Assembly (NCBI GenBank): GCA_049968235.1
Contig: JBMFRC010000017.1
Location: 1-62,527, forward strand
Reading direction: 5' to 3'
DNA length: 62,527 nt
Source: Candidatus Hydrogenedens sp.
GTDB lineage: Bacteria > Hydrogenedentota > Hydrogenedentia > Hydrogenedentales > Hydrogenedentaceae
The notes under the pieces were generated by a model. That model was not told the DNA's origin. It saw only the letters and a program-made list of their open reading frames with translations, and searched no databases. This document shows positions 37,936 to 53,814 of the stretch, piece by piece. Both the position numbers and the translations under genes were made by a program. Each line of letters begins with the position of its first letter. Position 1 is the stretch's first letter.

Positions 37936-38757
37936 ATGATACATATTTCCGTTAATGAAAAAGAGATAGAAGTGCCAGAGGGAATATCGTTACAAAAAAT
38001 AAAAGAAAAATACAAACCCGATGCGGATATTATAATCTGGAATGGTTTCCCTGTAAATAACGAGATTGAGTTGACAAAAAAAGTTAATGATAAAGACCAT
38101 TTAGTATTTATTAAACGGGGAGAAATACCATCATACGATGAATTAGAATTTTTAATGGTGGCACGTCATAGTCCGGGAGTGCATGAAAAAGTAAAAAAAA
38201 GTATCGTAGGAATCGCAGGATTGGGAGGCTTGGGTTCAACAGTAGCAATTGCTCTAACTCGTCTGGGAATAGGAAAATTGATTCTAGCTGACTTTGATGT
38301 AGTTGAACCGAGTAATTTGAATAGACAGCAATACTATATAAAGAATTTAGGAATGTATAAAACAGATGCAATGAGGGAAATTCTAAAAGATATTAATCCT
38401 TATGTGGATATAGAAACTTATACAGAAAAGATAAATCCGGATAATATACAACGCATTTTTACAAAAGTTCATATACTTGTTGAGGCTTTCGACACAGCAG
38501 AAGGGAAGCGAATGTTAATTGAGAATTTCCACAAATATTACCCCAATAAGGTTATTGTAAGTGCTTCCGGATTGGCAGGTTATTTCTCTTCAAATTCACT
38601 TAAAGTAAGAAAAGTAACTTCATACTTATATATTGTTGGTGATGAAGAAAATTCAGCAGGACCCAGAGCCGGCTTAATGTCACCAAGAGTTGGTATCGCT
38701 GGAAACTTACAAGCAAACACAGTTTTGCGTATCATTATGGGTGAATTAACACCATAA
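37936..38757 (+). CDS. ThiF/MoeB-family E1-like adenylyltransferase with an N-terminal ThiS-like ubiquitin-fold domain (fusion).
   Basis: N-terminus MIHISVNEKEIEVPEGISLQKIKEKY...LVFIKRG (ThiS-like, no free GG end). Then IVGIAGLGGLGSTVAIALTRLGIGKLILADFDVVEPSNLNRQ (E1 Rossmann/ATP motif). Confidence 0.7.
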   Translation: MIHISVNEKEIEVPEGISLQKIKEKYKPDADIIIWNGFPVNNEIELTKKVNDKDHLVFIKRGEIPSYDELEFLMVARHSPGVHEKVKKSIVGIAGLGGLGSTVAIALTRLGIGKLILADFDVVEPSNLNRQQYYIKNLGMYKTDAMREILKDINPYVDIETYTEKINPDNIQRIFTKVHILVEAFDTAEGKRMLIENFHKYYPNKVIVSASGLAGYFSSNSLKVRKVTSYLYIVGDEENSAGPRAGLMSPRVGIAGNLQANTVLRIIMGELTP

Positions 38758-40341: not shown

Positions 40342-41799
40342 ATGTCGGATGAAGAAATAAATATAAGCGAATTGGAAGAAAAAAAAGAGAATAAAAAGGA
40401 AAAGGAATTATTTAAATACAAGCCCACGGTTCCTATTTTACTTAGAGTTTCTGAAGATAAGATGCAAATGCTTATGAGTGGGGATATTCGGGGTTGGAAA
40501 AAGGATGAACTATTAGAATATCTTGAAGGGAAACTGAAGGAAGAAAAAATACTTGAACCAGATATTATTGGAAATGCAAAGAACCGTCTTTTAGAAATTA
40601 TTGAGAAGGGAGAAATTTTTGAGAATATTATATTGTTACGCGGTAAACAACCAGTTCCACCCGTTGAAGGAAGAATTGATTGGAAACAGGATTTCTTTGC
40701 CGAAGGCTATGAAATAGACCCTGAAACAGGGATGATGGATTATCGAAAGCCTAAAGCACAATTAAATGTAAAAGCGGGACAACTTTTAGCCATTGTTATT
40801 CTTCCTAAAGAAGGAGAAGATGGAGTTGATGTGTTCGGGAAAATTATCCCTGCTCCGAAACCCAAACCAATCCGTTTGAGGGCAGGTAGAAATGTAAAAG
40901 TAGATGAAACAAATACTCGTTTTTTTGCAGTAATTGATGGCAGGTTTCGTTTAGAAGACGATATTATTCACATAGACAATTATCTGGAGATTCAGGGTAG
41001 TGTCGGTTTAGAAACGGGAAATATAAGTCATTTAGGGTATTTAGTTATTAATAAGAATGTTGAATCTGATAGTGTTGTTCATGCGGAAGGGGATATAGAA
41101 ATAAAAGGATATGTGGAACAAGCAGATATAACGACCAAAGGAAAATTATTAGTTCAAGGTGGTATTACAGGTGGTTTTGAAAAAAAAGTTATTGCAAAAG
41201 GGACAATAACAGCAAAATATTTTTTAAACTTGCTTGCTGAATCTGAAGAAGGTGTATATGTGGGGAAAGAAATAGACCAGTCCTTTGTTCGTTCTCGAGG
41301 ACCTGTAATCGTGGGAGGAAGAATTGTTGGTGGAGAAATTATCGCTTTAGGTGAAGTAAAGGCAGACCAGATAGGGAGTGAAGCCTGTATAAAAACAACG
41401 TTAGTCCTTGGCGAAGACTATTTTTTACCGCGTTATATCAAGCCTTTTGAAGATGAAAAAAAAGAGAAGGAGGAACTTTTGAAAAAGATTGTAAAAGGTA
41501 TTAAACCTTTACAAAATCGGTGGCAATCGTTACCTCAGGATGCTAAAAACGCATATGTAAAACTTGTCCAGCAGGCTAAAACAATAAAAGAAAGTATTGA
41601 TGAACTGGATAAGAAAATTAATGAATTAACAGAAAAATCTAGGAAAAAATCTCTACCCCAAGCCATTGCAAGAAAACATCTTTATCCGGAAGTATTTATA
41701 AAAATAGGGGATAAAACATTTCAGACACGAGAATATATCAAAGGTCCTGTTAAAGTAGCACTCGTAACAGGAGAAATTCATCTTCTGGCAGTGTCTTAG
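40342..41799 (+). CDS. FapA/DUF342-family protein (flagellar-assembly-protein-A-like).
   Basis: N-terminal domain, then a repetitive beta-solenoid-like region: VKAGQLLAIVILPKEGEDGVDVFGKIIPAPKPKPIRLRAGRNVKVDE...GDIEIKGYVEQADITTKGKLLVQGGITGG. C-terminal coiled coil. Confidence 0.55.
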   Translation: MSDEEINISELEEKKENKKEKELFKYKPTVPILLRVSEDKMQMLMSGDIRGWKKDELLEYLEGKLKEEKILEPDIIGNAKNRLLEIIEKGEIFENIILLRGKQPVPPVEGRIDWKQDFFAEGYEIDPETGMMDYRKPKAQLNVKAGQLLAIVILPKEGEDGVDVFGKIIPAPKPKPIRLRAGRNVKVDETNTRFFAVIDGRFRLEDDIIHIDNYLEIQGSVGLETGNISHLGYLVINKNVESDSVVHAEGDIEIKGYVEQADITTKGKLLVQGGITGGFEKKVIAKGTITAKYFLNLLAESEEGVYVGKEIDQSFVRSRGPVIVGGRIVGGEIIALGEVKADQIGSEACIKTTLVLGEDYFLPRYIKPFEDEKKEKEELLKKIVKGIKPLQNRWQSLPQDAKNAYVKLVQQAKTIKESIDELDKKINELTEKSRKKSLPQAIARKHLYPEVFIKIGDKTFQTREYIKGPVKVALVTGEIHLLAVS

Positions 41800-41817: not shown

Positions 41818-44517
41818 CTATGCACCTCCGGGAGCAAAACCATCTTCTGTATTTGGGTCCTGATGATAATAACCACCAGAACTATTAAACAACTGAATAA
41901 CACGCAATATCTCGTTTAGATTTATTTGAAAGTCAGGTGGATTGTAATCTGCAGTATGGTTGGAGCAATTTCTGGGTCCGGTTGGGATTGGTGCATATCC
42001 ATCTTCCGTTCCCTGTTTACACGAATAACCTCCTGCATTGTAAAATTGAATTACACGAAGAAGTTCAACTAACTCAATTCGCCAATTGCCATTAGTATCA
42101 CAGTTATGGTAAGGTAAAACTTCTCCTTCCGCTTGTCCTTCGGGTATCCCCTCAGGTGTTCCTTCTAATGTTCCTTCTGTCGTTCCTTCAGAAATACCTT
42201 CAATAGTCCCTTCATTTCCACATGCGTTGAATATCAATACCCATTCTTCTACACGTCCCTGGCCTCCTGAAACAGCATCTGCAACCTGAAGTGTCCATGT
42301 GCCATACATATTTTCACCAGTGAAAGTTGATAGTGGCATAGCAGGTGCGAATACGCCTGTATAAGGACTTGAACCTGCTTCAAGAGATATAGATGATGAA
42401 TCGGAGAATACCGTATTTACCATATTGATACCCCCTTGCGGAACGGATGTGAATAAAAGGACCTCAGTTCCTAAAGGAGATATCAGTTTCATTCTTAATT
42501 GACTGACATCCGGATGAGTTACCGTTACACGAATTTTCACATTTTGAATAATTCTTGAAAGAGGAACTTGTAAAGGTAAGAAACTATTACCCGGGTCTAA
42601 TAATGTAGAAAAATGATTGGTTTTGAATTCAACATCACAATCCGGATATTGAATTTCCCCTTCTCCTTCTACGGGTGTTCCTTCCCCTTCTCCTTCTTCT
42701 CCTTCAGGTTCTTCACCTTCTAATGTTCCCTCGAAGGTTGTCCGGGGGCATATTCCATCGTAGCCAACCCAACACCCTTTTGCTTCTAAAAGTGGTATTT
42801 GTTCACATAACACTGATTCAGGTAAAGGATTCCCTTCTAAACCTATCTCATCACCTGAACCTAAACCTACATTCTGGATTAGTGATTGAATATCTTCAAT
42901 TTGATTGTCCCATAAGAATAAATGTTCTAAATTTTCTAAGTTTTGTAGAGCATGTATATCGGATATGTTATTTCGTCCTAAATTGAGTAGTTTAAGTCCG
43001 AATAATGAACTTAAAGGTGAAATATCAGTAATATTATTATTCCATAAAATAAGTGTCTCTAAATTTCTGATTTTATAAATTCCCGTCAAATTTTGAATAT
43101 TACGAGAAGAAGCGTTAAGGGTCTTCAAAATAACAAGGTCACCTTCATAAATATCTTTTGTTTGTTCGTACCCCAGTGCATCTTTTACTGCTGCTTCTAA
43201 ATTGGGGTCATCAAAATGAACTACTTCTCCGGCACCGAAAACATCAATTAGAACTTTTTGGGATAACACCTCTTCTGTTCCGGATACTGCTCTGCATTGA
43301 TATTCACCCTGACTGGAACCTGATATAGGGTTAATAACCCATTGATTTGAATTCGGTCCTGAAATAACACCGTTATGACTCCAGTAAAAAGTCGGTACTG
43401 TCGTTCCACCTTTTACTTTAAATAAAAGCACCGCCTCTTCACCCACATTATACAAACCACCAACAGGTTGAATGAGTATCTGGAGAGGGACTTTACGTAC
43501 ACCCAGATATACGCCCCATGATTGTCTTCCTCCTAATCGAGTTGATGGGTTATAAATTGATGCAGAATCAGAAACCGCAATAGAAAATCGTGCATTGTCT
43601 AAGATTGTTGCATAAGGAATAATATAAGTTGAAGAATTGGGTCCCACAATTTCAAATGATGAAGGGAAAGAGTAACCGTTTGAATCTGTTCTTAACCACT
43701 GGAAGGTTAAAGGACCATCTCCTCCGGTTACCTGTACAGAAAGTGTCGCCTGGTCTCCTGTATCAATAACACCTGGATTTGCCCCAATACCTATTATTCT
43801 CGGAGGAGGAACAATACTACATCTACTAAACCATACTTCGCGTGTACCTGCCCCGGAATATGCCTGGATATTCGTTTGTCCATTTCCATCTATATCTCCA
43901 CCTGCACCTAAATAATTGGTTCCTGTATTTCCAAATGTTACATAACGACTCGGTCCAAAATTAATATAGTCATCTAAATTAATATAATTTAAAGCCCAAC
44001 CATAACCTTCCCGTTCTGCAAAATATCGCACAAGGTCTTTTAAGAAATTATTCAGAAAATTAAATGTTACAGAATCTCCACAAGTCATATAGCCCGCAAG
44101 GAAATACTGAACCGCAAAAGCAAGGAGAGGGTCCTTGTTACGAAGTTCATTAATTACATCAAAGTGCATTGTTTGCCCTAATACATTCAAAGTAATATTT
44201 AAGTCTCTTTCTACTTGTTGCATATTGGCTCGAAAGCCTTCTTGTATGGATATAATTCTGTCTAAAGGAATTTGCGGAGAATTATTTAACAAGACTGCAG
44301 ATAGTAATCCAAGATGGTCTTCCTCTTTTAGTCCATTACCATCACGGTCAGCTCCATAAATATGAGCAAATCTTCCAGGTGCCATGTCATCTAAGGTATA
44401 GTCAACTGCCCATAAAATATAATCATAATCTACATCGATGCGGTCTGTGTATCCTGAAAATGAATATATCAATGAGATTGCCAGGATTAGAATGTTAAGT
44501 AAGTTTCTAACTTTCAT
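41818..44517 (-). CDS. Large secreted surface protein: internalin-like LRR region, Ig-like domains, proprotein-convertase P-domain, Glu/Gly linkers, and a C-terminal tandem EF-hand/dockerin-like module.
   Basis: Signal MKVRNLLNILILAISLIYSFS, with Shine-Dalgarno GGAGG before the internal ATG at 44517. 22-aa LRRs NLETLILWNNNITDISPLSSLFGLKLLNLGRNNISDIHALQNLENLEHLFLWDNQIEDIQSL. Ig-like FQWLRTDSNG and GEYQCRAVSG. P-domain IRVTVTHPDVSQLRMKLISPLGTEVLLF...GTWTLQVADAVSGGQG. C-terminal DTNGNWRIELVELLRVIQFYN...EDGYAP and a second copy. Confidence 0.7.
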   Translation of the reverse strand: MKVRNLLNILILAISLIYSFSGYTDRIDVDYDYILWAVDYTLDDMAPGRFAHIYGADRDGNGLKEEDHLGLLSAVLLNNSPQIPLDRIISIQEGFRANMQQVERDLNITLNVLGQTMHFDVINELRNKDPLLAFAVQYFLAGYMTCGDSVTFNFLNNFLKDLVRYFAEREGYGWALNYINLDDYINFGPSRYVTFGNTGTNYLGAGGDIDGNGQTNIQAYSGAGTREVWFSRCSIVPPPRIIGIGANPGVIDTGDQATLSVQVTGGDGPLTFQWLRTDSNGYSFPSSFEIVGPNSSTYIIPYATILDNARFSIAVSDSASIYNPSTRLGGRQSWGVYLGVRKVPLQILIQPVGGLYNVGEEAVLLFKVKGGTTVPTFYWSHNGVISGPNSNQWVINPISGSSQGEYQCRAVSGTEEVLSQKVLIDVFGAGEVVHFDDPNLEAAVKDALGYEQTKDIYEGDLVILKTLNASSRNIQNLTGIYKIRNLETLILWNNNITDISPLSSLFGLKLLNLGRNNISDIHALQNLENLEHLFLWDNQIEDIQSLIQNVGLGSGDEIGLEGNPLPESVLCEQIPLLEAKGCWVGYDGICPRTTFEGTLEGEEPEGEEGEGEGTPVEGEGEIQYPDCDVEFKTNHFSTLLDPGNSFLPLQVPLSRIIQNVKIRVTVTHPDVSQLRMKLISPLGTEVLLFTSVPQGGINMVNTVFSDSSSISLEAGSSPYTGVFAPAMPLSTFTGENMYGTWTLQVADAVSGGQGRVEEWVLIFNACGNEGTIEGISEGTTEGTLEGTPEGIPEGQAEGEVLPYHNCDTNGNWRIELVELLRVIQFYNAGGYSCKQGTEDGYAPIPTGPRNCSNHTADYNPPDFQINLNEILRVIQLFNSSGGYYHQDPNTEDGFAPGGA

Positions 44518-44771
44518 ATTTTGCCTCCAAATTATATACATATTTTTATTTATTCCTGATTAAATATTATATCCTATTTTTATTATATAACAAATCCATT
44601 AACAAAAATTAAATTAAAATGCCAAATTTTTAACATAATATTTTTGTATAAAAATATGTGATTCTTTATTGTAAAAATTGAAAAACAAGTTTGTTTTATT
44701 TTATATTTTAGTTTATACTTATATTGTGATTTAATTATGATATTTTTTAATTAAAAATAAAGGTAAATCAG

Positions 44772-46982
44772 ATGACAATGAAAGAGAGTAGATATAAAAT
44801 GAAAATCGAGTTTCTATTTTTTTTATTTTTATTCACAATATTTTGTTTATTTCCTCCTGTCTATGCTCAAGATATATTCGGATTGCTTTACAACGCTAAT
44901 GAAGGTTCTGGACATCAGGACCGTCCTTTAAATCTTGCAAATCGAACAGGGAACATTACAATTGATACAGACTCTATGTTGATATATGGCGATATTACTC
45001 CGACTCGTTATGGAGAAGAAGTGGCAGGAGTATGTGTGTTTCGTTTTAGTTATGTTAATTTAGGTCCTAATGTAAATGTAACAATTCAAGGGAAACGACC
45101 TCTGGCAATATTGTCTGCGACAGATATGGTTATCAATACAAATTTGATAGTTGCCCCTGGAACATTAGGAGGTGCTTTTGGTGGAGAAGGGGGCAAAGGT
45201 GGAGAAGGAGGTAAAGCAGGTAGTGGAATGGGTGCAGAAGGGGGTTTTGGTGGAAATGCAGGAGCGGGTGGCTTGGGTTACGATGAAGCAAGTAATGGTC
45301 ATGCGGGAACAGTTGGAACAAAAGGGAATAATTCGGGTCCTGGAACATGGGAAGGAGAATTTATCCCGGAAGGTGGAAGTGGTGAAAATGGCAAAGCAGG
45401 AAAGAACGGACAATGTTATATTTCTGCCAGTTCTTTGCTTATAGCAGGGGGTAGTGGAGGAGGTGGTGGCGGCGGTGGCGGCGGAAGAGGAGGTTCTGGT
45501 GATGGTGGCGGTGGCGGAGGTGGTGGTTCTGGAGGCGGTGGTGGTGGTGCTTTCACATTAATTCTTCCTACGGAAAAATCAGGTGAAGGGGGTGGGATTG
45601 GAACCTCTGTTGGTGGTGCCGGTGGAGATGGAGGTAGCGGTGGAAATGGTGGCACTGGGGCTTTAGGTGGTGCTGGAGGAGATAATTATCCATTAGGTTC
45701 TAAAGAGGTTGTTACACTGTTCATAAAAGATTATGGAGAAAATGGTGGAGATGGAGGCAAAGGTGGAACAGGTGGTGGTGCATTAATTTTAGGTGCAAGA
45801 GGAATGCTAACGCTTGGTAATAATATCATCATAGATATATCTGCTGGAATACCCGAAAATGGAACGACAGGTACAGGTGGTGGAGCAGGAGGGAGAGGAG
45901 GATATGGAACACCCGGTATGCTAAAACTTCAAGGTTCTCTTATTAACCTTCCTGCGGGTGTCTTACGCCCAACAATTAAAGCCAATTATTCGGGTGACCT
46001 TTACGCAGAATCAAATGGCAGGGTAACTTTAATCACAAATATGTCCCAATATTTACTTGGTTTTAGATTACCGAATTTTTCTAATCCGGGGACATTAATT
46101 GGTTGGACATTAAACAATTCTGTTTTGAGAGATTATAATGTGTTTAATCCGACAGAAGATACTCCCCTGATACCTGAATTAAGTTCCGGGCTTAATGTCG
46201 AAGGGTATTTGAATAATAATGTGCTTTATGAAAACATTATAGAAGCCACAGAACCGGAATCTGTTGTAAGAAATGTTGAACTCAAAAGAATTACCGGAAT
46301 TAATTCATATTTTGAAGGTTTTGACCATATTATTTTGATTAATCAGGGAGAGATTTATTTATCACGAGTATATTTAAAAGTAGGAAGTAATAATCCTATG
46401 CCTATTGGTTTTGGAACGGGAGACCTTGCAGTTGGTGCACGATGGACAACTTTAATTCCAACGACAAATCCTCTTACTGATGTAGAAGTAATAATTTTAG
46501 ATAATATTCCCGGGGAAGGTGAAGGGGTGTCAGAAGGAATAGTCGAAGGTGAAGGAGTAATAGAAGGAATAGCAGAAGGGGAGGGGATAGCCGAAGGTAT
46601 TATGGAAGGCGAAGGGCAACAGGAAGGAACTATTGAAGGAGCATCTGATGGTGAAGGAGTAGTAGAGGGAAGTTCAGAAGGGGAAATATGCACATATCAT
46701 TCTGCAGATACAAATAAAGACTGGATAATCAATCTTGCCGAATTGTTAAGAGCTATACAATTATTTAATTCTAATCAATATCATTGTGATGAAGCTACGG
46801 AGGATGGGTATGCTCCGGGAGCCGGATTACAAAATTGTCAACCCCATAAAAGTGATTATAGTCCTGTGTCCTGGAAAATAGAATTAAATGAACTATTGAG
46901 GCTTATACAATTTTTTAATTCCCCCGGAAGTAGATACCATTGTGATACGAATGGCGAAGATGGATACAATCCGGGAATATAA
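44772..46982 (+). CDS. Secreted Gly-rich surface protein; paralog of the N-terminal part of the 47110 gene, with the same C-terminal tandem EF-hand/dockerin-like module as the 41818 gene.
   Basis: Signal MKIEFLFFLFLFTIFCLFPPVYA. Conserved block CVFRFSYVNLGPNVNVTIQGKRPLAILSATDMVIN. About 250 aa of GGxGG low complexity. GTPGMLKLQGS...NGRVTLITNM. EGEG linker. C-terminal ICTYHSADTNKDWIINLAELLRAIQLFNS...EDGYAPG, then NCQPHKSDYSPVSWKIELNELLRLIQFFNS...EDGYNPGI. Confidence 0.7.
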   Translation: MTMKESRYKMKIEFLFFLFLFTIFCLFPPVYAQDIFGLLYNANEGSGHQDRPLNLANRTGNITIDTDSMLIYGDITPTRYGEEVAGVCVFRFSYVNLGPNVNVTIQGKRPLAILSATDMVINTNLIVAPGTLGGAFGGEGGKGGEGGKAGSGMGAEGGFGGNAGAGGLGYDEASNGHAGTVGTKGNNSGPGTWEGEFIPEGGSGENGKAGKNGQCYISASSLLIAGGSGGGGGGGGGGRGGSGDGGGGGGGGSGGGGGGAFTLILPTEKSGEGGGIGTSVGGAGGDGGSGGNGGTGALGGAGGDNYPLGSKEVVTLFIKDYGENGGDGGKGGTGGGALILGARGMLTLGNNIIIDISAGIPENGTTGTGGGAGGRGGYGTPGMLKLQGSLINLPAGVLRPTIKANYSGDLYAESNGRVTLITNMSQYLLGFRLPNFSNPGTLIGWTLNNSVLRDYNVFNPTEDTPLIPELSSGLNVEGYLNNNVLYENIIEATEPESVVRNVELKRITGINSYFEGFDHIILINQGEIYLSRVYLKVGSNNPMPIGFGTGDLAVGARWTTLIPTTNPLTDVEVIILDNIPGEGEGVSEGIVEGEGVIEGIAEGEGIAEGIMEGEGQQEGTIEGASDGEGVVEGSSEGEICTYHSADTNKDWIINLAELLRAIQLFNSNQYHCDEATEDGYAPGAGLQNCQPHKSDYSPVSWKIELNELLRLIQFFNSPGSRYHCDTNGEDGYNPGI
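45440..45560 (+). repeat. (GGN)n glycine-codon microsatellite-like tract inside the 44772 gene.
   Basis: ggtagtggaggaggtggtggcggcggtggcggcggaagaggaggttctggtgatggtggcggtggcggaggtggtggttctggaggcggtggtggtggt, encoding GGSGGGGGGGGGGRGGSGDGGGGGGGGSGGGGGG. Confidence 0.8.
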
Positions 46983-47109: not shown

Positions 47110-50100
47110 ATGAAAATTTATGTGCTCAAAAGTAGTATTGGTCTTTTGTTCGTATTTGCTGTGTGTATGCTGATACTAACATTAGACGCACATACTCAGA
47201 CTTCTTCGGCATATTATGTCGGAGACCCAAATGGTCCGGATTTGAATGCACCCAGTGGTTCAACACTGGTATTTAATACGGATGCATTGACCATGACAGG
47301 ACAAAATGGAGCAACGCCATTCAGTCATAATGCAAGTAATGAAGGTGGTGTTGCCGTTTATAGGTTTAAAAATGTCAATATTTCGACAGGTGTGACAATA
47401 AATGTATTAGGTTCAAGACCATTAGCTTTATCAGCCTATCGAGATATGTCAATTGCCTCCTCATTTAATGTAAATGGTTCAGTAGCGGGTCGTTCTGGTG
47501 GTGGTGTTGGCGGAAGTGGTGGTGTTGGGGGAGCAGGTCGCCCTGGTGGTTCAACGGCGGGTGCTGGTGGTGCGGGGGGGCCAGGCAGACCCGGTGGACC
47601 CGGTGCAGATTCTTTCTGGCAACAGGGACAACCCGGTCAAAATGGTGTAGGAGGTTCAGATGGTTCTCCTGGTCAAAATGGTTTTGCAGGTCAGAACGGT
47701 GGTGCAGGTGAGCCAGGTACTTTTGGATTTGGAACACAGGGGGGTCCTTCTGGAGGCACATTAGGTCAGGGTGGAACGGTAGGTGGTGCAGGTGCTCAAA
47801 ATGGAGTGGGTTCAACAGCAGTTGGTACTTTAGGTGGAGGTGGTAGTACAAGTTTCCCTCATGGTAGTAATGGTGGAAATGGAACAAATGCAAATTCATC
47901 TTTACCGGGAACAAATGGACAAAATGGACAGGCAGGTGAAAGTGGGAAAAATGGTGGAGATGGTTATAGTGGTGTTTTTAATGTTCCTGTTAATACATTA
48001 GATTTATTCGGTGGTGCTGGTGGAGGCGGAGGTGGAGGCGGAGGTGGAGGTCAAGGTGGTGGTCAAGGTGGTGGTGGAGGTGGTGGTGCTAGCGGAGGTA
48101 GTGGTGGTGGCGGTGGTGCAGGTGAGTATCTTGCGGACCGTGCAAATGGAGGTAGTGGTGGAGCCAGTGGAAAAGGTGGTGATGGTGGAAGAGGTGGTAA
48201 TGGAGGTGTTGGCGGAAGTGGAGGTAACGGTGGTAATGGAGCAAATGGTGGTGGTGCAATAATACTTTCTGCTCGTGGTTTATTAAGAGTTCCATCCCTT
48301 ATGACCGTAGATGTTTCCTGTACATCCCCTACAACAGGTTCTTCCGGTTCTCTTGCCCCTGCATTAGGGCAACCAGGTGGTCCTCAAGTAGGGTATCCAT
48401 CTACGGGAAGAGGTTTTGGACAGGCAGGTGGTGAAGGTCAAGTAATTAATTTGTTGTTATTTACCATTGAAGGAGGAGATGGCGGTAGAGGTGGAGATGG
48501 AAATTTAGGTGGTGCAGGTGGAAATGGAGCGGTAGGTGGTAACGGTGGTTCCGGTGGGAACGGTGGATATGCAACTCCGGGTATGGTTAAACTACATGGT
48601 TCTATTGTTATTGCCAATAATCTTGTTGTAACAGCAGGAGGAGCCAGAGATGCTTCTGCTGAGAATAATGGAAAATTAACACTAATTTCTAATATGAATG
48701 ATACATTGATTAATGCATATCAGCCGAATACTTCCCTTTCAACACCTACATTAGTTCGCGGTTCAACAACAAATCCTGCTATTCAAGGGATTTCTAATTT
48801 TACAGATGAAATTAGATTTCCTAATCATTATTATAAACATCCATTTATTCCGCAATTACTTCAAGGACCTTCCGTTGAAGGACTTTTACAGTCTCCATAC
48901 TGGAATGAGAGTTTTGTGAATGCTATAACACCCAATCAAGTTATTCCTGCTGGGGCACCGCCAATGACCCCAAGAGTAGTATTAAAAAGACTTAATTATG
49001 GATATGGAAATAATTACAGTCCATTTAAAGAGTTTGACCAGATTGTTGTTATCAATGAATCTTCAACACAAACATTTTCAGGTTTATATTTGAAAGTAGA
49101 TAATGCTACAGCGAATCCTCCTGCAACTCCGAAGAAAATTAATAATGGTACAGGAGAACTGGCACCGGGACAAATCTGGACAACGACAGTTCCGTATGAT
49201 GCTCAGGTAACATTATTACAATTGGCACAGATAACTCAGCAACCTACGGATGTCGCTGTTTGGCCCGGTGGTTATGCGCAATTTAGTGTTGTTGCCCAAA
49301 GTTCATCATCGATTGATTATCAGTGGTTCCGTAATACAGATGGAACATTCAGAGAGATAATAGGTGCTACAAATAGTTCGTATGAAATTTTAACTGTATC
49401 CGAAGCATTACAGGGATGGTATCGAGTACGTCTCAGAAATAATGCCGGAGATGTATTTTCAAGAGATGCTTTCCTGAATGTTCTTGAAGCACCCATTATT
49501 ACTCAACATCCGCAGGATGTAAATGAGTATCCTAATATGTTGGTTTCGTTTAATGTGGAAACATTGAAGCCTACAGACCCACCTCCTGCCCCGGGTATTG
49601 ACCCATCTATTGATTATACAATAGTAAGTCGTGGGTATCAGTGGCAGTTTGCTCCACAGTTAGAACCGCCTGAATTACCTCCTGAAACAGTTCCACCAAG
49701 TGAAAATTTCTATGATTTGCCGGGGGCTGATGCAAGAGAAAAAACATATAATATTGCATCAATAAGTGAGGCAAATCAAGGGTGGTATCGAGTTAAAGTA
49801 ATGAATGATACGGGAACCGCTATATCAAATCCAGCAAAGTTAAATGTCTATGATGGTGTTCGAATTTTAGAACAACCTACAAGTATATCCGCACCACCCC
49901 ATGCTAATGTTACATTCCAGACACGGGTAACGGGTGCGTTACCTATTTGGTGGCAATGGCAAGTAGCTCCATCTACAAATGGTCCATGGACAAATATTCC
50001 TGGACAAACCGGTTCGTATCCAATAGGAACTTCACCGAGTGGTAATCCACCAGGATTTACAATTACTGCTAATATCCTTGATGTTACAGCAAACGCGTAT

Positions 50101-51546
50101 TATCGTTGTAAAGTATTTAATGGCGGGAATCTATTAGGAGTTCTTACAGACCCAGCCTATTTAGAAATTCGTGACCCGGCTATTATGGTTCAGCCGACAT
50201 CTAAATCTGTAAATCCGGGACAGGCTGTAAACTTTGTCGTTTCGGCAGGTGGCTCAGGTGTCCTGACTTATAGATGGTATTTCTTCCCTGCAGATTTAGA
50301 TGGAGAAACAATGCCTCCTCCTCCGAATGTATGTGATTTACCTCAGCCATGTGCAGAGAATATTATATACCAAGGCTCAGGTTCTTCTTATGCAATCTAT
50401 AATATTTATGGTCCCCCAATAGGACCAGGTGCACAAGAATCCAACGAAGGTTATTACTATGTCCGTGTGGATAATTCAATGGGACATGTAGAGTCTGTCG
50501 TTGTTTACTTGAAAGTTAATGACCCACCTACAATTATAACTCAACCTGCTAATGATCAAGTGGATGAAGGTGGTGCTACGACATTGTCTGTAACTGCATA
50601 TAGCGGAACAAATGTTACATATCAGTGGCGATTGAATGGTATAAACCTTACAAGTGATGGAGTTCATATATTTGGAGCAACACTTAATGCATTACCGGGT
50701 ACCACAACAAGTACACTACAAATACTTGGTGCTCGTATAGAAGATGAAGGCTATTATGATGTTGTAATTACAAACTCTGCAGGTTATGTAATTTCTAATC
50801 AAGCTTACTTAATTGTTGGTGACCCATTGGAAATAGTAGAAACAGAGAATCCGGGCAAAGCATATATAAATTCGCCGGAAGTCCGGTTGAGTGTAACAAC
50901 ACAAGGTGGAAAGGGCACAAGAACCTATCAATGGTATAAGAATGGCACAGGTCCTTCGAATGCAATTGGCAGTCCTATTTTAAGTAATGCAGACCCATAC
51001 ACTGCATATCTGACTTTGTATGATGTTACCCTTGCAGATTCCGGTATCTACTACTGCAGTATCACGGATGCCCGGGGAACTCTTTGGACACCCGCGTTGC
51101 AGTTAACTATTTATGAACATTTGTCAACACCAATTATTGCCGGTGACCCAGAGGTAGAGAAGAAAGTCGGAGAATCGTATACATTTGAAGTAATCGTAAG
51201 TGGTGGTGTCCCACCGTTACATTACTTATGGCAACATGATGACCTGAATACAAAGACTGTTTATACAGTTGGAGGCGATTCTTCAATATTAACTCTTAAT
51301 GACCTACAGGTTACAGATTCCGGTGACTATTATGTTGTTGTGAGTGATAGCGGTGAAACATGGAATGAAGAAACACAACAATATGAACCCGAAACTAAGG
51401 TATCCAATCGGATACGATTGAATGTATCTCCAGAAATTCCTGCGGGAAATGTGTTTGGATATATTATCCTTGTGATGCTTATTACAATAATGGGTGTATA
51501 TGCAGTGAAACGGTTTGAAAGAAGACCGAAAAAACAGCACAGTTAG
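47110..51546 (+). CDS. Giant (1478 aa) secreted, C-terminally membrane-anchored protein: paralogous Gly-rich N-terminal region plus seven I-set Ig-like repeats.
   Basis: Strong Shine-Dalgarno AGGAGG. Signal/TM LLFVFAVCMLILTL. Block VAVYRFKNVNISTGVTINVLGSRPLALSAYRDMSI paralogous to the 44772 gene. GGxGG tract. ATPGMVKLHGS...NGKLTLISNM. Seven repeats of Y(Q/R)W...NG...G.Y.(C/V).(V/I).N..G (for example YQWFRNTDG...GWYRVRLRNNAGDV; YQWRLNG...GYYDVVITNSAGYV). C-terminus SPEIPAGNVFGYIILVMLITIMGVYAVKRFERRPKKQHS (TM plus basic tail). Confidence 0.75.
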   Translation: MKIYVLKSSIGLLFVFAVCMLILTLDAHTQTSSAYYVGDPNGPDLNAPSGSTLVFNTDALTMTGQNGATPFSHNASNEGGVAVYRFKNVNISTGVTINVLGSRPLALSAYRDMSIASSFNVNGSVAGRSGGGVGGSGGVGGAGRPGGSTAGAGGAGGPGRPGGPGADSFWQQGQPGQNGVGGSDGSPGQNGFAGQNGGAGEPGTFGFGTQGGPSGGTLGQGGTVGGAGAQNGVGSTAVGTLGGGGSTSFPHGSNGGNGTNANSSLPGTNGQNGQAGESGKNGGDGYSGVFNVPVNTLDLFGGAGGGGGGGGGGGQGGGQGGGGGGGASGGSGGGGGAGEYLADRANGGSGGASGKGGDGGRGGNGGVGGSGGNGGNGANGGGAIILSARGLLRVPSLMTVDVSCTSPTTGSSGSLAPALGQPGGPQVGYPSTGRGFGQAGGEGQVINLLLFTIEGGDGGRGGDGNLGGAGGNGAVGGNGGSGGNGGYATPGMVKLHGSIVIANNLVVTAGGARDASAENNGKLTLISNMNDTLINAYQPNTSLSTPTLVRGSTTNPAIQGISNFTDEIRFPNHYYKHPFIPQLLQGPSVEGLLQSPYWNESFVNAITPNQVIPAGAPPMTPRVVLKRLNYGYGNNYSPFKEFDQIVVINESSTQTFSGLYLKVDNATANPPATPKKINNGTGELAPGQIWTTTVPYDAQVTLLQLAQITQQPTDVAVWPGGYAQFSVVAQSSSSIDYQWFRNTDGTFREIIGATNSSYEILTVSEALQGWYRVRLRNNAGDVFSRDAFLNVLEAPIITQHPQDVNEYPNMLVSFNVETLKPTDPPPAPGIDPSIDYTIVSRGYQWQFAPQLEPPELPPETVPPSENFYDLPGADAREKTYNIASISEANQGWYRVKVMNDTGTAISNPAKLNVYDGVRILEQPTSISAPPHANVTFQTRVTGALPIWWQWQVAPSTNGPWTNIPGQTGSYPIGTSPSGNPPGFTITANILDVTANAYYRCKVFNGGNLLGVLTDPAYLEIRDPAIMVQPTSKSVNPGQAVNFVVSAGGSGVLTYRWYFFPADLDGETMPPPPNVCDLPQPCAENIIYQGSGSSYAIYNIYGPPIGPGAQESNEGYYYVRVDNSMGHVESVVVYLKVNDPPTIITQPANDQVDEGGATTLSVTAYSGTNVTYQWRLNGINLTSDGVHIFGATLNALPGTTTSTLQILGARIEDEGYYDVVITNSAGYVISNQAYLIVGDPLEIVETENPGKAYINSPEVRLSVTTQGGKGTRTYQWYKNGTGPSNAIGSPILSNADPYTAYLTLYDVTLADSGIYYCSITDARGTLWTPALQLTIYEHLSTPIIAGDPEVEKKVGESYTFEVIVSGGVPPLHYLWQHDDLNTKTVYTVGGDSSILTLNDLQVTDSGDYYVVVSDSGETWNEETQQYEPETKVSNRIRLNVSPEIPAGNVFGYIILVMLITIMGVYAVKRFERRPKKQHS
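48000..48125 (+). repeat. (GGN)n glycine-codon tract inside the 47110 gene.
   Basis: ggtggtgctggtggaggcggaggtggaggcggaggtggaggtcaaggtggtggtcaaggtggtggtggaggtggtggtgctagcggaggtagtggtggtggcggtggtgca. Confidence 0.8.
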
Positions 51547-53076: not shown

Positions 53077-53814
53077 TTATTGGGATATAATTTTTTGAAT
53101 TATAATACCTGCGGAAGTTAAACCAAAGATACCTGGAATATAAGAAATACTTCCAATCGCTTGTTTTTTTGCATCGCTATGTATTGTTGTGTTTTTATTA
53201 AAATCGTTATTTATGTATATTTGTTTCGGGGTCTCTGTGGAAAAAACACAGGTTATACCATTGATTATACCTCGTTTTTTTAATTCTACTCGAACATTTT
53301 TAGCTAATGGACAGGTATGAGTCTTTGAAATATCCCTTATTGTAATAGATGAAGGGTCTACTTTCATTCCTGCACCCATACATGCAACTGTAAAAATTTT
53401 TTCTTTATATAGTGAGACTAACAAATCTATTTTGGAATGGAGAGTATCAATAGCATCTATAGCAAAATGGAAGTCTTTTTTAATAATTTCTAATATGTTT
53501 TCTGAATTAACAAATGTAGAAAATTTATGTATAGTAACTTCAGGATTAATTTTTAACATTCGTTCTTCCGCTATATCTACTTTATGTCTACCTATATCGG
53601 GATAAGTTGCTAAAATTTGTCTGTTTATATTAGACTCCTCAATTTGGTCAAAGTCAACGATGGTGATCGTTCCTATCCCCGCTCTTACGAGGGCTTCTAA
53701 TGCGTATGAGCCAACTCCTCCCAGACCAAATACTGCCACATGGGCAGATTGTAATTTTGTAAATTTTTCTTTTCCTAATAAGGTAATTGTTCTTTCTGAA
53801 AAATTCCTTTCCAT
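53077..53814 (-). CDS. tcdA: tRNA threonylcarbamoyladenosine dehydratase TcdA (CsdL), ThiF-family E1-like.
   Basis: LQSAHVAVFGLGGVGSYALEALVRAGIGTITIVDFDQIEESNINRQ. DAIDTLHSKIDLLVSLYKEKIFTVACMGAG. CVFSTE near the C-terminus. Very close to E. coli TcdA architecture. Confidence 0.8.
   Translation of the reverse strand: MERNFSERTITLLGKEKFTKLQSAHVAVFGLGGVGSYALEALVRAGIGTITIVDFDQIEESNINRQILATYPDIGRHKVDIAEERMLKINPEVTIHKFSTFVNSENILEIIKKDFHFAIDAIDTLHSKIDLLVSLYKEKIFTVACMGAGMKVDPSSITIRDISKTHTCPLAKNVRVELKKRGIINGITCVFSTETPKQIYINNDFNKNTTIHSDAKKQAIGSISYIPGIFGLTSAGIIIQKIISQ

What the first reader, a model, noticed from the sequence alone, without database searches (positions are those of the whole stretch)
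46684..46979. Novel C-terminal tandem module shared by two proteins: EF-hand-like loop + ELLRxIQFFN helix + GYHC...EDGYxPG
The 44772 gene ends with ICTYHSADTNKDWIINLAELLRAIQLFNSNQYHCDEATEDGYAPG, then NCQPHKSDYSPVSWKIELNELLRLIQFFNSPGSRYHCDTNGEDGYNPGI. The 41818 gene (minus strand, nt 41821..42120) ends with NCDTNGNWRIELVELLRVIQFYNAGGYSCKQGTEDGYAPIPTG, then NCSNHTADYNPPDFQINLNEILRVIQLFNSSGGYYHQDPNTEDGFAPGGA. The first copy in each has a 12-residue loop DxNxDWxIxLxE with ligand positions 1, 3, 5, 9 and 12 like an EF-hand (Trp replaces the usual Gly at position 6), followed by an LL(R/K) helix as in type-I dockerin 22-mers. A conserved Cys and the EDG(Y/F)xPG element are not part of any dockerin I know. 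In both proteins an acidic (EGxxEG)n linker precedes the module.
Basis: seen in the sequence. Interest (0 to 1): 0.65.

Follow-up and report, generated by a model that had tools for sequence, protein, structure and literature searches.

The report
Uncatalogued calcium-loop anchor domain of Hydrogenedentota
The two proteins end in a real, well-folded, probably calcium-binding double-repeat domain that no domain library lists, occurs on thousands of secreted proteins of the uncultured phylum Hydrogenedentota (dozens per genome), and most likely ties those proteins to the cell envelope.

Summary
ORF 44772..46982 (+) and ORF 41818..44541 (-) each end in a module of about 100 aa made of two ~48-aa repeats, four repeats in all. 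The two modules are 53% identical (E=5e-38).

It is not a local oddity. A profile finds 3038 cluster representatives in 1.84 billion proteins. A genome scan finds at least 594 stretches, nearly all in Hydrogenedentota MAGs, with at least 15-17 loci in single MAGs. Pfam and NCBIfam have no model for it.

The best functional clue is a "choice of anchor" pattern. Paralogues of module-bearing proteins end in a C-terminal transmembrane helix plus basic tail instead. This holds for the neighbouring gene 47110..51546 and for cohesin paralogues in five independent gene clusters.

I read the module as a dockerin-like, Ca2+-stabilised module that attaches proteins to the cell envelope. Its receptor is unknown. 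It is a new variant of a known kind.

The parts
44772..46982 (+). Gene 1: secreted 736-aa protein. It has a signal peptide (aa 1-33), a Gly-rich body with no Pfam hit, an EG linker and the C-terminal module.
   Evidence: ORF list. No Pfam or NCBIfam family. Orthologues 84%, 68% and 66% identical in L001, L003 and L004.
46509..46685 (+). Acidic Glu/Gly-rich linker (aa 580-638) before the module of gene 1.
   Evidence: Sequence and coordinates. In 21 of 58 C-terminal modules in related loci, Glu+Gly make up at least 50% of the 40 aa upstream; others have shorter EG stretches.
46686..46826 (+). Module of gene 1, repeat A: Cys640, 12-residue loop DTNKDWIINLAE (46707..46742), helix ELLRAIQLFN (46740..46769), hairpin YHC...EDGYAPG (46779..46820).
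   Evidence: AF2 places a helix at model residues 18-29 and strands at 33-35 and 43-45, with pLDDT 95.7.
46827..46979 (+). Module of gene 1, repeat B: Cys689, 13-residue loop DYSPVSWKIELNE (46854..46892), helix ELLRLIQFFN (46890..46919), hairpin YHC...EDGYNPG (46935..46976).
   Evidence: The 13-residue loop type is found in at least 253 units of the family.
41818..44541 (-). Gene 2: secreted 907-aa protein with Ig_3, LRR and proprotein-convertase P domains, an EG linker and the C-terminal module.
   Evidence: Pfam hits: P_proprotein 47.9 bits, LRR_4 43.4 bits, Ig_3 43.3 bits.
42121..42219 (-). Glu/Gly-rich linker (aa 775-807) before the module of gene 2.
41977..42120 (-). Module of gene 2, repeat A: loop DTNGNWRIELVE (42064..42099) and helix ELLRVIQFYN (42037..42066).
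41821..41976 (-). Module of gene 2, repeat B: loop DYNPPDFQINLNE (41911..41949) and helix EILRVIQLFN (41884..41913).
47110..51546 (+). Adjacent paralogue of gene 1 (1478 aa). It ends in a transmembrane helix (51454..51507) plus a basic tail instead of EG linker plus module. This is the in-window 'choice of anchor' comparison.
   Evidence: BLASTP between the N-terminal bodies gives E=2e-20. Ig domains. Tail sequence.

Best explanation
The module is an autonomous extracellular domain of about 97 aa, built from two tandem units. Each unit has an EF-hand/dockerin-type calcium loop (12 residues in unit A, a 13-residue DYNPQDW variant in unit B). The loop runs into an amphipathic helix (ELLRxIQFFN) and then a short beta-hairpin (YHC...EDGYxPG). 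The two units pack pseudo-symmetrically and are stapled by disulfides. It is usually placed at the C-terminus behind a flexible acidic Glu/Gly linker, and sometimes directly after the signal peptide. I propose that it works as a dockerin-like, non-covalent attachment module that holds diverse secreted proteins (adhesin-like repeats, proteases, cohesins) on a common, conserved component of the Hydrogenedentota cell envelope. In this role it fills the same architectural slot that a C-terminal transmembrane or sorting tail fills in paralogues.

Shown here: the domain exists, it has a confident predicted fold, it is abundant with a clear distribution, the Cys positions covary, and it swaps with TM tails. 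Inferred: Ca2+ binding, actual disulfide formation, the anchoring function and the nature of the receptor.
For: Family size and position:
- 3038 representatives at E<=1e-3 and 1451 at E<=1e-30. The module lies at the extreme C-terminus of proteins of 100-2500 aa in most of the top 150.
- At least 594 genomic stretches, nearly all in Hydrogenedentota MAGs. Among the top 80 loci, 17 come from one MAG (JAKQOG01) and 15 from another (CAYYRW01).

Cargo:
- Carriers hold typical surface or secreted domains: InlB B-repeat, beta-helix, Ig-like, PASTA, LRR, CHRD, GLUG, P-domain, peptidases M4 and M14, NHL, PKD, FGE-sulfatase.

Fold:
- AF2 gives pLDDT 95.7 and pTM 0.84.

Calcium loops:
- 292 twelve-residue loops have D1, [ND]3, [DN]5, I8 and E12, and 173 match PS00018.
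- EF-hand Pfam models hit 28 of 40 members, best E=1.3e-6.

Disulfides:
- C35 and C52 are present in about 100% of 336 unique modules.
- C86 and C94 co-occur in 238 modules, against 3 with only one of them (p=4e-81).
- The alternative 'YHC' Cys co-occurs with an upstream CxxHxxD Cys (p=1e-9). This is the arrangement in gene 1.

Choice of anchor:
- (i) Gene 44772 versus its neighbour 47110..51546, which has a TM helix plus basic tail.
- (ii) Five cluster contexts, not counting L086, which repeats L085 (L085, L087, L088, L089, L055), hold 2-5 paralogous single-cohesin proteins. In the four clusters whose cohesin C-termini I read, one or two of these end in EG linker plus module and the rest in a TM helix plus basic tail; in L055 only the module-bearing ORF was examined.
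- (iii) 41 of 42 further cohesin paralogues end in a TM helix plus basic tail and one carries the module.
- (iv) Passenger paralogues with TM tails occur in L034 and L035.

Not a C-terminal signal:
- 19 of the 77 two-motif module ORFs tallied (58 C-terminal, 19 not) lie elsewhere than the C-terminus: some directly after the signal peptide, others deep inside long ORFs. Tandem arrays of two to four modules also exist.
Against: - No receptor has been identified.
- No conserved partner gene lies next to stand-alone module genes.
- Ca2+ binding and the disulfides rest on sequence patterns and covariation only. I could not inspect model coordinates.
- In the window's own copies, loop position 6 is Trp, which PS00018 excludes. 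Repeat B of gene 1 has Ser at two ligand positions.
- The choice-of-anchor pattern shows that the positions are equivalent, not that the functions are.
- The envelope architecture of Hydrogenedentota is not known from culture. If the TM-tailed paralogues sit in the inner membrane, the analogy to surface display weakens.
Confidence: 0.55

Rival explanations
1. The module is a true dockerin whose receptors are the cohesin proteins of Hydrogenedentota. Dozens of module-bearing proteins would dock onto membrane-anchored or lipid-anchored single-cohesin proteins. Proteins carrying both a cohesin and the module would act as adaptors. Together they would form a cellulosome-like surface display system. 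This is a more specific version of the anchoring idea that names the receptor.
For: - The fold is closest to type I dockerins.
- Hydrogenedentota genomes encode clusters of 2-5 cohesin paralogues. Pfam Cohesin scores 35-51 bits against a cutoff of 24.1. Foldseek matches type I cohesins at E=3e-13 with target-normalised TM about 0.8.
- Most of these cohesins are tethered by C-terminal TM tails, as anchoring scaffoldins would be.
- The ratio of many modules to few cohesins mirrors cellulosomes.
- The polar helix residues R, Q and N are invariant in both repeats, which would fit a dual binding mode.
Against: - The same clusters encode canonical Dockerin_1 proteins of about 160 aa next to the cohesins. 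These are the more obvious cohesin ligands.
- AF2 of a natural cohesin-module fusion gave pTM 0.68 with both domains confident, so no clear docking was predicted.
- No cohesin was found in the 62.5-kb window or in most module loci.
- The module family also reaches a probable archaeon, in tandem arrays on a TM-anchored protein, with no cohesin among the called neighbours.
Confidence: 0.2
2. The module is a Ca2+-dependent ligand-binding (lectin-like or CBM-like) or matrix-binding domain. It would direct its cargo to an external substrate, biofilm matrix or prey surface rather than to the producer's own envelope.
For: - The cargo includes hydrolases and adhesin-like repeats.
- The domain can be N-terminal, internal or repeated in tandem, like carbohydrate-binding modules.
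- Near-invariance of the module across paralogues and species suggests one common, conserved, possibly non-protein ligand.
Against: - The module repeatedly swaps with C-terminal membrane tails in paralogues. This is the pattern of anchors, not of substrate-binding modules.
- No structural match to any lectin or CBM fold was found.
Confidence: 0.15
3. The module is a C-terminal secretion or sorting signal, recognised and possibly removed by a dedicated export or sortase-like machinery, as with the T9SS C-terminal domain or PEP-CTERM.
For: - It is predominantly at the extreme C-terminus.
- There are dozens of copies per genome on otherwise unrelated secreted proteins.
Against: - About a quarter of the two-motif module ORFs tallied in the loci (19 of 77) are not C-terminal, and tandem arrays exist.
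- It has no TM helix or basic tail.
- No NCBIfam sorting-domain model hits it.
- Stand-alone proteins made of a signal peptide plus the module alone exist, for example P0164.
Confidence: 0.05

Closest known systems
Type I dockerin (Pfam PF00404) of cellulosomal and non-cellulosomal proteins
   Same: - An internally duplicated module.
- Each half is a calcium loop of EF-hand type that runs straight into an exiting helix, with no entering helix (the 'F-hand').
- The two halves are related by a pseudo-twofold axis.
- It is usually C-terminal, behind a flexible linker, on many unrelated secreted proteins of one organism.
   Different: - The repeat unit is 48-51 aa, not about 22.
- Each helix is followed by a conserved beta-hairpin (YHC...EDGYxPG) that dockerins lack.
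- Loop position 12 is Glu, as in EF-hands; by my recollection it is usually Asp in dockerins (own knowledge).
- The second loop has 13 residues, with invariant Tyr2, Pro4 and Trp7.
- It has conserved disulfides.
- Dockerin_1 scores only E>=0.029.
- Canonical Dockerin_1 proteins coexist in the same genomes.
- No cohesin partner is shown.
Canonical EF-hand pair (calmodulin/troponin C type; Pfam EF-hand_1/5/6/7, PROSITE PS00018)
   Same: - Loop A follows the 12-residue pattern: D1, [DN]3, [DN]5, hydrophobic residue at 8, E12.
- 173 of 292 family loops match PS00018.
- Weak profile hits to troponin C and calmodulin, E about 0.05.
- EF-hand Pfam hits in 28 of 40 members.
   Different: - There is no entering helix before the loops in the AF2 model; residues 1-17 and 46-67 are coil.
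- It is extracellular and disulfide-bonded.
- Hairpin extensions are present.
- The window copies are below all Pfam cut-offs (14.1 bits against 25).
C-terminal sorting or anchoring tails, and the 'choice-of-anchor' logic used in NCBIfam naming (PEP-CTERM, MYXO-CTERM, LPXTG, T9SS CTD)
   Same: - It occupies the same slot at the end of secreted proteins.
- It alternates with TM-plus-basic tails in paralogues. Several of those tails carry a Cys motif resembling MYXO-CTERM.
   Different: - It is a folded soluble domain with no TM segment.
- It can be N-terminal or tandem.
- No matching NCBIfam model exists.
- Attachment would be non-covalent.
Ruminococcus flavefaciens ScaA dockerin with intramolecular clasp (PMC3821032, title and abstract only)
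   Same: In gene 1's sub-lineage, a Cys before loop A covaries with a Cys in the last hairpin. This implies contact between the N-terminus and C-terminus that closes the module, which is the same idea as a dockerin 'clasp'.
   Different: Here the clasp would be a disulfide, inferred from covariation and not observed. I did not read the ScaA clasp's chemistry beyond the abstract.

Membership tests
Dockerin type I (PF00404) | The sequence matches the Pfam Dockerin_1 model at its gathering score. | tested here: not met
   The window modules give no hit. Only 7 of 40 family members hit at E<=1, with a best E of 0.029.
Dockerin type I (PF00404) | Two duplicated segments, each a 12-residue Ca2+ loop followed directly by a helix (F-hand), packed antiparallel. 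| tested here: inconclusive
   The duplication and the loop-then-helix order are present. However, the units are 48-51 aa with an added hairpin, and loop B has 13 residues.
Dockerin type I (PF00404) | Fold similarity to solved dockerins at a significant level. | tested here: inconclusive
Dockerin type I (PF00404) | Ca2+-dependent binding to a cohesin. | not testable with these tools
   Only an indirect test was possible. A single-chain AF2 model of a natural cohesin-module fusion gave pTM 0.68, so no clear docking.
EF-hand (PS00018; PF13405, PF13202, PF00036) | A 12-residue loop matching the PROSITE pattern. | tested here: inconclusive
   Across the family, 173 of 292 twelve-residue loops match. 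The window loops DTNKDWIINLAE and DTNGNWRIELVE fit ligand positions 1, 3, 5 and 12, but they have Trp at position 6, which the pattern excludes.
EF-hand (PS00018; PF13405, PF13202, PF00036) | A Pfam EF-hand model matched at its gathering score. | tested here: not met
   The window module scores 14.1 bits on EF-hand_6 against a cutoff of 25. Some relatives reach E=1.3e-6, and one is annotated PF13202 in the database.
EF-hand (PS00018; PF13405, PF13202, PF00036) | Helix-loop-helix, with an entering helix before the loop. | tested here: not met
   The AF2 secondary structure has only the exiting helices, H18-29 and H68-79, and coil before each loop.
T9SS C-terminal sorting domain, PEP-CTERM, LPXTG, MYXO-CTERM | Match to the NCBIfam sorting-signal models; a strictly C-terminal position; and, for the CTERM and LPXTG types, a TM helix plus basic tail. 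| tested here: not met
   No NCBIfam hit. The module has no hydrophobic segment (sequence). About a quarter of the two-motif module ORFs tallied (19 of 77) are not C-terminal.
flexitail domain (NCBIfam NF041520) | Model score at or above the 40-bit cutoff. | tested here: not met
   One window module scores 22.4 bits. Only 1 of 40 family members hits at all. I treat this as chance or very remote.

The most novel reading that the evidence does not exclude
Hydrogenedentota may run a phylum-wide, non-cellulolytic 'cellulosome-like' surface assembly system. In it, this hairpin-extended, disulfide-stapled module would be a new dockerin type. It would plug dozens of adhesins, proteases and other exoproteins per cell into small cohesin proteins tethered by MYXO-CTERM-like tails, with cohesin-plus-module proteins acting as adaptors. 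That would be a new class of cohesin-dockerin pair and the first large display system of this kind in a diderm candidate phylum. Relatives reach a probable archaeon.
Probability: 0.15. Interest if true: 0.8.

Novelty: new variant of a known kind. Interest (0 to 1): 0.55.

Why it matters
Hydrogenedentota are uncultured but common in anaerobic digesters and sediments, and how they interact with substrates and partners is unknown.

- A single domain that marks dozens of secreted proteins per genome gives a ready handle for defining the phylum's surface proteome from sequence alone.
- It fills a gap in domain libraries: thousands of proteins now labelled 'hypothetical', or wrongly 'EF-hand domain-containing', could be annotated.
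- It points to a testable attachment system. A receptor must exist, because the module is nearly invariant across paralogues.
- As a small (97 aa), confidently modelled, probably Ca2+-switchable binding module with its own flexible acidic linker, it could also be useful for protein display engineering, as dockerins are.
- The linked finding of conserved cohesin / Dockerin_1 clusters with alternative anchors extends non-cellulosomal cohesin-dockerin biology.

Tried and rejected
- **Flexitail (NF041520).** The 22.4-bit hit looked like a lead, but only 1 of 40 family members hits it. The name has no relevant literature.
- **PDB sequence profile search.** It gave only sub-significant EF-hand matches (E>=0.056) and no dockerin.
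- **Literature searches.** Searching Hydrogenedentes/Hydrogenedentota with dockerin, EF-hand or surface proteins found nothing on this domain.
- **AFDB Foldseek library.** It was unavailable.
- **Neighbourhoods of small 'stand-alone' module genes.** No recurring partner appeared. P0003 is probably the frameshifted start of a longer N-terminal-module gene, and P0017 is cut by a contig end.
- **Cis docking in a natural fusion.** A single-chain AF2 model of a cohesin-module fusion was used to look for cis docking. It gave pTM 0.68, which is uninformative, and no PAE or coordinates were available.
- **NCBIfam scan of the TM-tailed neighbour 47110.** I looked for a named sorting signal and found none.
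- **Low-complexity or lineage-specific duplication.** Rejected because of the confident fold, position-specific conservation, Cys covariation and a spread over more than 3000 clusters.
- **Cluster-member look-up for taxonomy of multi-module proteins.** It gave almost no names.
Full report
**1. Observation**

The module of the first gene is 46686..46979. The stated start, 46684, is 2 nt before the first codon, which is why a direct translation from it is out of frame.

A six-frame scan finds the helix motif and the EDG[YF]xP motif four times each, only in these two ORFs. The two modules are 53% identical (E=5e-38). The two halves of one module are 53% identical (E=3e-15). Both modules follow Glu/Gly-rich linkers, and both proteins begin with signal-peptide-like sequences (by inspection).

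**2. Not a local curiosity**

- A single-sequence search found 52 relatives. Most are short proteins, many marked partial, and most named ones come from Candidatus Hydrogenedentes MAGs.
- A profile built from 40 modules (A1) finds 3038 proteins at E<=1e-3 and 1451 at E<=1e-30 among 1.84 billion cluster representatives. The module lies at the very C-terminus of proteins of 100-2500 aa in most of the top 150 listed.
- The same profile finds 993 proteins in the 90% clustered collection.
Nearly all are in Hydrogenedentota MAGs, some of which are titled 'uncultured Nitrospirales' or 'delta proteobacterium'. Among the best 80 loci, 17 come from one MAG and 15 from another.
- The window's own gene has an orthologue 84% identical in L001. 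With 35% G+C, the window is therefore most likely from a Hydrogenedens-like organism.
- A divergent three-module, TM-anchored protein (P0058) lies next to a TFIIE-alpha gene, so the family probably reaches Archaea.

**3. Not in the domain libraries**

- Pfam gives nothing for the window modules above threshold; the best is EF-hand_6 at 14.1 bits against a cutoff of 25.
- Over 40 members, EF-hand models hit 28, 18, 15 and 14 members (best E=1.3e-6). Dockerin_1 hits 7 (best E=0.029).
- NCBIfam gives only one 22.4-bit 'flexitail' hit against a cutoff of 40, and it is not reproduced in the family.
- A PDB sequence search gives only sub-significant troponin C and calmodulin matches.
- Literature searches found no description of the domain.

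**4. Anatomy**

The family consensus is HSADxNxDxxISLSELLRVIQFFNSxGYHCxxxTEDGYAPGxGDxxCxPHxSDYNPQDWxIxLSELLRLIQFFNSGGYHxCxxxEDGYCPG.

AF2, using A1 as the alignment, gives pLDDT 95.7 and pTM 0.84. It predicts coil, helix 18-29, hairpin 33-35/43-45, coil, helix 68-79 and hairpin 84-87/95-97. Each unit is therefore a loop, an exiting helix and a hairpin, with no entering helix. This is the dockerin 'F-hand' arrangement rather than a full EF-hand.

Among 664 loop-helix units collected, there are two loop types:
- 292 have a 12-residue loop with D1 100%, N/D3 98%, D/N5 98%, I/V8 96% and E12 100%. Of these, 173 match PROSITE PS00018.
- At least 253 have a 13-residue loop D-Y-N-P-Q-D-W-x-I-x-L-S-E, with Y2 97% and W7 98%.

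The window's Trp at position 6 of loop A is one of three common choices (N 25%, G 24%, W 19%).

**5. Cysteines**

The analysis used 336 unique modules.
- C35 (in the YHC motif of the first hairpin) and C52 (in CxPH, before loop B) are present in about 100%.
- C86 and C94, in the second hairpin, are both present in 238 modules, both absent in 95, and split in only 3 (p=4e-81).
- A minority, including gene 1, instead has Cys in the 'YHC' position of hairpin B. This co-occurs with a Cys in CxxHxxD before loop A: 8 of 13, against 6 of 323 otherwise (p=1e-9). By the internal symmetry this is the equivalent of C35-C52 and would clasp the N-terminus and C-terminus (C640-C724 in gene 1).
- A third solution, Cys at position 87, is followed in 15 of 18 cases by a Cys about 10 residues after the module.

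These patterns indicate disulfides and hence an oxidising, extracytoplasmic location. The bonds themselves are inferred.

**6. Fold comparison**

**7. What it is attached to**

Pfam scans of 56 full-length carriers show unrelated extracellular domains: InlB B-repeat (8), beta-helix (6), surface Ig-like (5), PASTA, LRR, CHRD, GLUG, P-domain, peptidases M4 and M14, NHL, PKD, FG-GAP and FGE-sulfatase. Gene 2 of the window is an Ig, LRR and P-domain protein.

Position of the module in the fetched loci:
- 68 of 89 module ORFs have the last helix motif within about 50 residues of the ORF's end, so the module is C-terminal there.
- Among the 77 ORFs with two helix motifs, 58 are C-terminal and 19 are not. 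Some of these 19 lie directly after the signal peptide, often followed by an EG linker and then GLUG or FGE-sulfatase domains; others lie deep inside long ORFs.
- Tandem arrays of two to four modules occur.
- A strongly EG-rich linker (at least 50% E+G over 40 aa) precedes 21 of 58 C-terminal modules. Many others have a shorter EG stretch.

The N-terminal and tandem cases argue against an obligate C-terminal secretion signal.

**8. The functional clue: choice of anchor**

(a) In the window, the next gene (47110..51546) shares the Gly-rich body of gene 1 (E=2e-20). It continues into Ig repeats and ends in a TM helix plus KRFERRPKK tail rather than linker plus module.

(b) Four proteins of about 255 aa combine a Pfam Cohesin domain (35-51 bits, cutoff 24.1) with the module. 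Their genes lie in conserved clusters (L085, with the near-identical L086; L087; L088; L089; L055). Each cluster holds 2-5 paralogous single-cohesin proteins. In L085-L089 the clusters also hold one or two Dockerin_1 proteins of about 160 aa. In the four clusters whose C-termini I read (L085, L087, L088, L089), every cohesin paralogue ends in a TM helix plus Arg/Lys tail, often preceded by a GGCQCA, GCGCA or GGCFGG motif reminiscent of MYXO-CTERM. The exceptions are the one or two that end in EG linker plus module. In L055 I established only that three ORFs match the cohesin profile and that one of them carries the module.

(c) Of 42 further cohesin paralogues retrieved from the large collection, 41 end in a TM helix plus basic tail and one carries the module.

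(d) Passenger domains of module proteins have TM-tailed paralogues in L034 and L035.

The cohesin fold of the fusion protein is confirmed by Foldseek (E=3e-13). The module therefore sits in the slot that anchors occupy. This is positional equivalence, and the anchoring function is inferred from it.

**9. Mechanism proposed**

A secreted protein is held, through a flexible acidic linker, by a small Ca2+-stabilised, disulfide-stapled domain that binds non-covalently to a conserved envelope component. The near-invariance of polar helix residues (R23, Q26, N29 and R73, Q76, N79) across paralogues and species fits a single common ligand. These residues could instead be structural, for example salt bridges to the invariant E40 and D41.

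Whether the receptor is one of the tethered cohesins is open. Canonical Dockerin_1 genes sit next to those cohesins and are the simpler ligands. AF2 of a natural cohesin-module fusion gave confident domains but pTM 0.68, so no clear docking.

**10. Verdict**

The EF-hand loop and dockerin-like reading is partly supported. The domain is an uncatalogued family, best described as a new variant of the dockerin/EF-hand-loop kind. An anchoring role is well supported but unproven, and the receptor is unknown. Interest is moderate to high for people working on surface display, cohesin-dockerin systems and candidate phyla.

Noticed in passing
window 47110..51546 (+): A 1478-aa paralogue of gene 1. It shares the Gly-rich N-terminal body, which has no Pfam or NCBIfam family. 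It then has several Ig_3/I-set repeats and a C-terminal TM helix (51454..51507) with a basic tail, preceded by 'PEIPAG'. No named sorting-signal model hits it.
   Followed up: partly
L085 8098..11460; L087 2671..6662; L088 514..7119; L089 1141..6670; L055: Conserved Hydrogenedentota clusters of 2-5 small single-cohesin proteins. In L085-L089 they also hold Dockerin_1 proteins of about 160 aa, several of which end in or near a shared motif 'ERYLxTLTPxAPP'. Most cohesins end in a Cys motif (GGCQCA, GCGCA or GGCFGG), a TM helix and an Arg-rich tail, resembling MYXO-CTERM sorting signals. This is a non-cellulosomal cohesin-dockerin system that, as far as my searches went, is undescribed.
   Followed up: partly
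window 42655..42732 (-), aa 604-629 of the 41818 gene: A second, internal Glu/Gly-rich linker (EGTLEGEEPEGEEGEGEGTPVEGEGE) separates the LRR region from the proprotein-convertase P domain. EG linkers therefore serve as general inter-domain spacers in this organism, not only before the module.
   Followed up: no
L083 6001..7974 (protein P0058): A 657-aa protein with three divergent copies of the module. The copies are interleaved with Cys-rich segments and followed by a C-terminal TM anchor. Its gene neighbours include TFIIE_alpha, so it is probably archaeal. The helix motif is degenerate, but HSADxNxDW, YHC...EDGYA and C..HDxDY are retained.
   Followed up: partly
L004-L006, L010, L011, L013, L016, L017 and others (assemblies CAYYRW01, CAYXPO01, CAZZMK01, CAZJTZ01, CAVPOV01): MAGs titled 'uncultured Nitrospirales' or 'uncultured delta proteobacterium' carry many copies of the module, at 55-83% identity to Hydrogenedentota copies. 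Their taxonomic labels are probably wrong.
   Followed up: no
L014, L026, L037, L045, L049, L054, L058 (module ORFs): A recurring architecture in which the module, usually soon after the signal peptide (but well inside the ORF in L026, L049 and L054), is followed by a long EG linker and a domain whose ORFs end in motifs typical of FGE-sulfatase (SUMF1-like) proteins, such as 'GFRLVR'. In several of these N-terminal modules (L014, L037, L045, L058) the last hairpin Cys is shifted (position 87) and pairs with a Cys just after the module.
   Followed up: partly
window 37936..38757 (+) and 53077..53814 (-): Two ThiF-family E1-like genes. The first is fused to an N-terminal ThiS-like ubiquitin-fold domain (PF14453 plus PF00899).
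   Followed up: no
window 40342..41799 (+): A FapA (DUF342) protein (FapA_N plus FapA beta-solenoid) lies immediately downstream of, and convergent with, the 41818 surface-protein gene.
   Followed up: no
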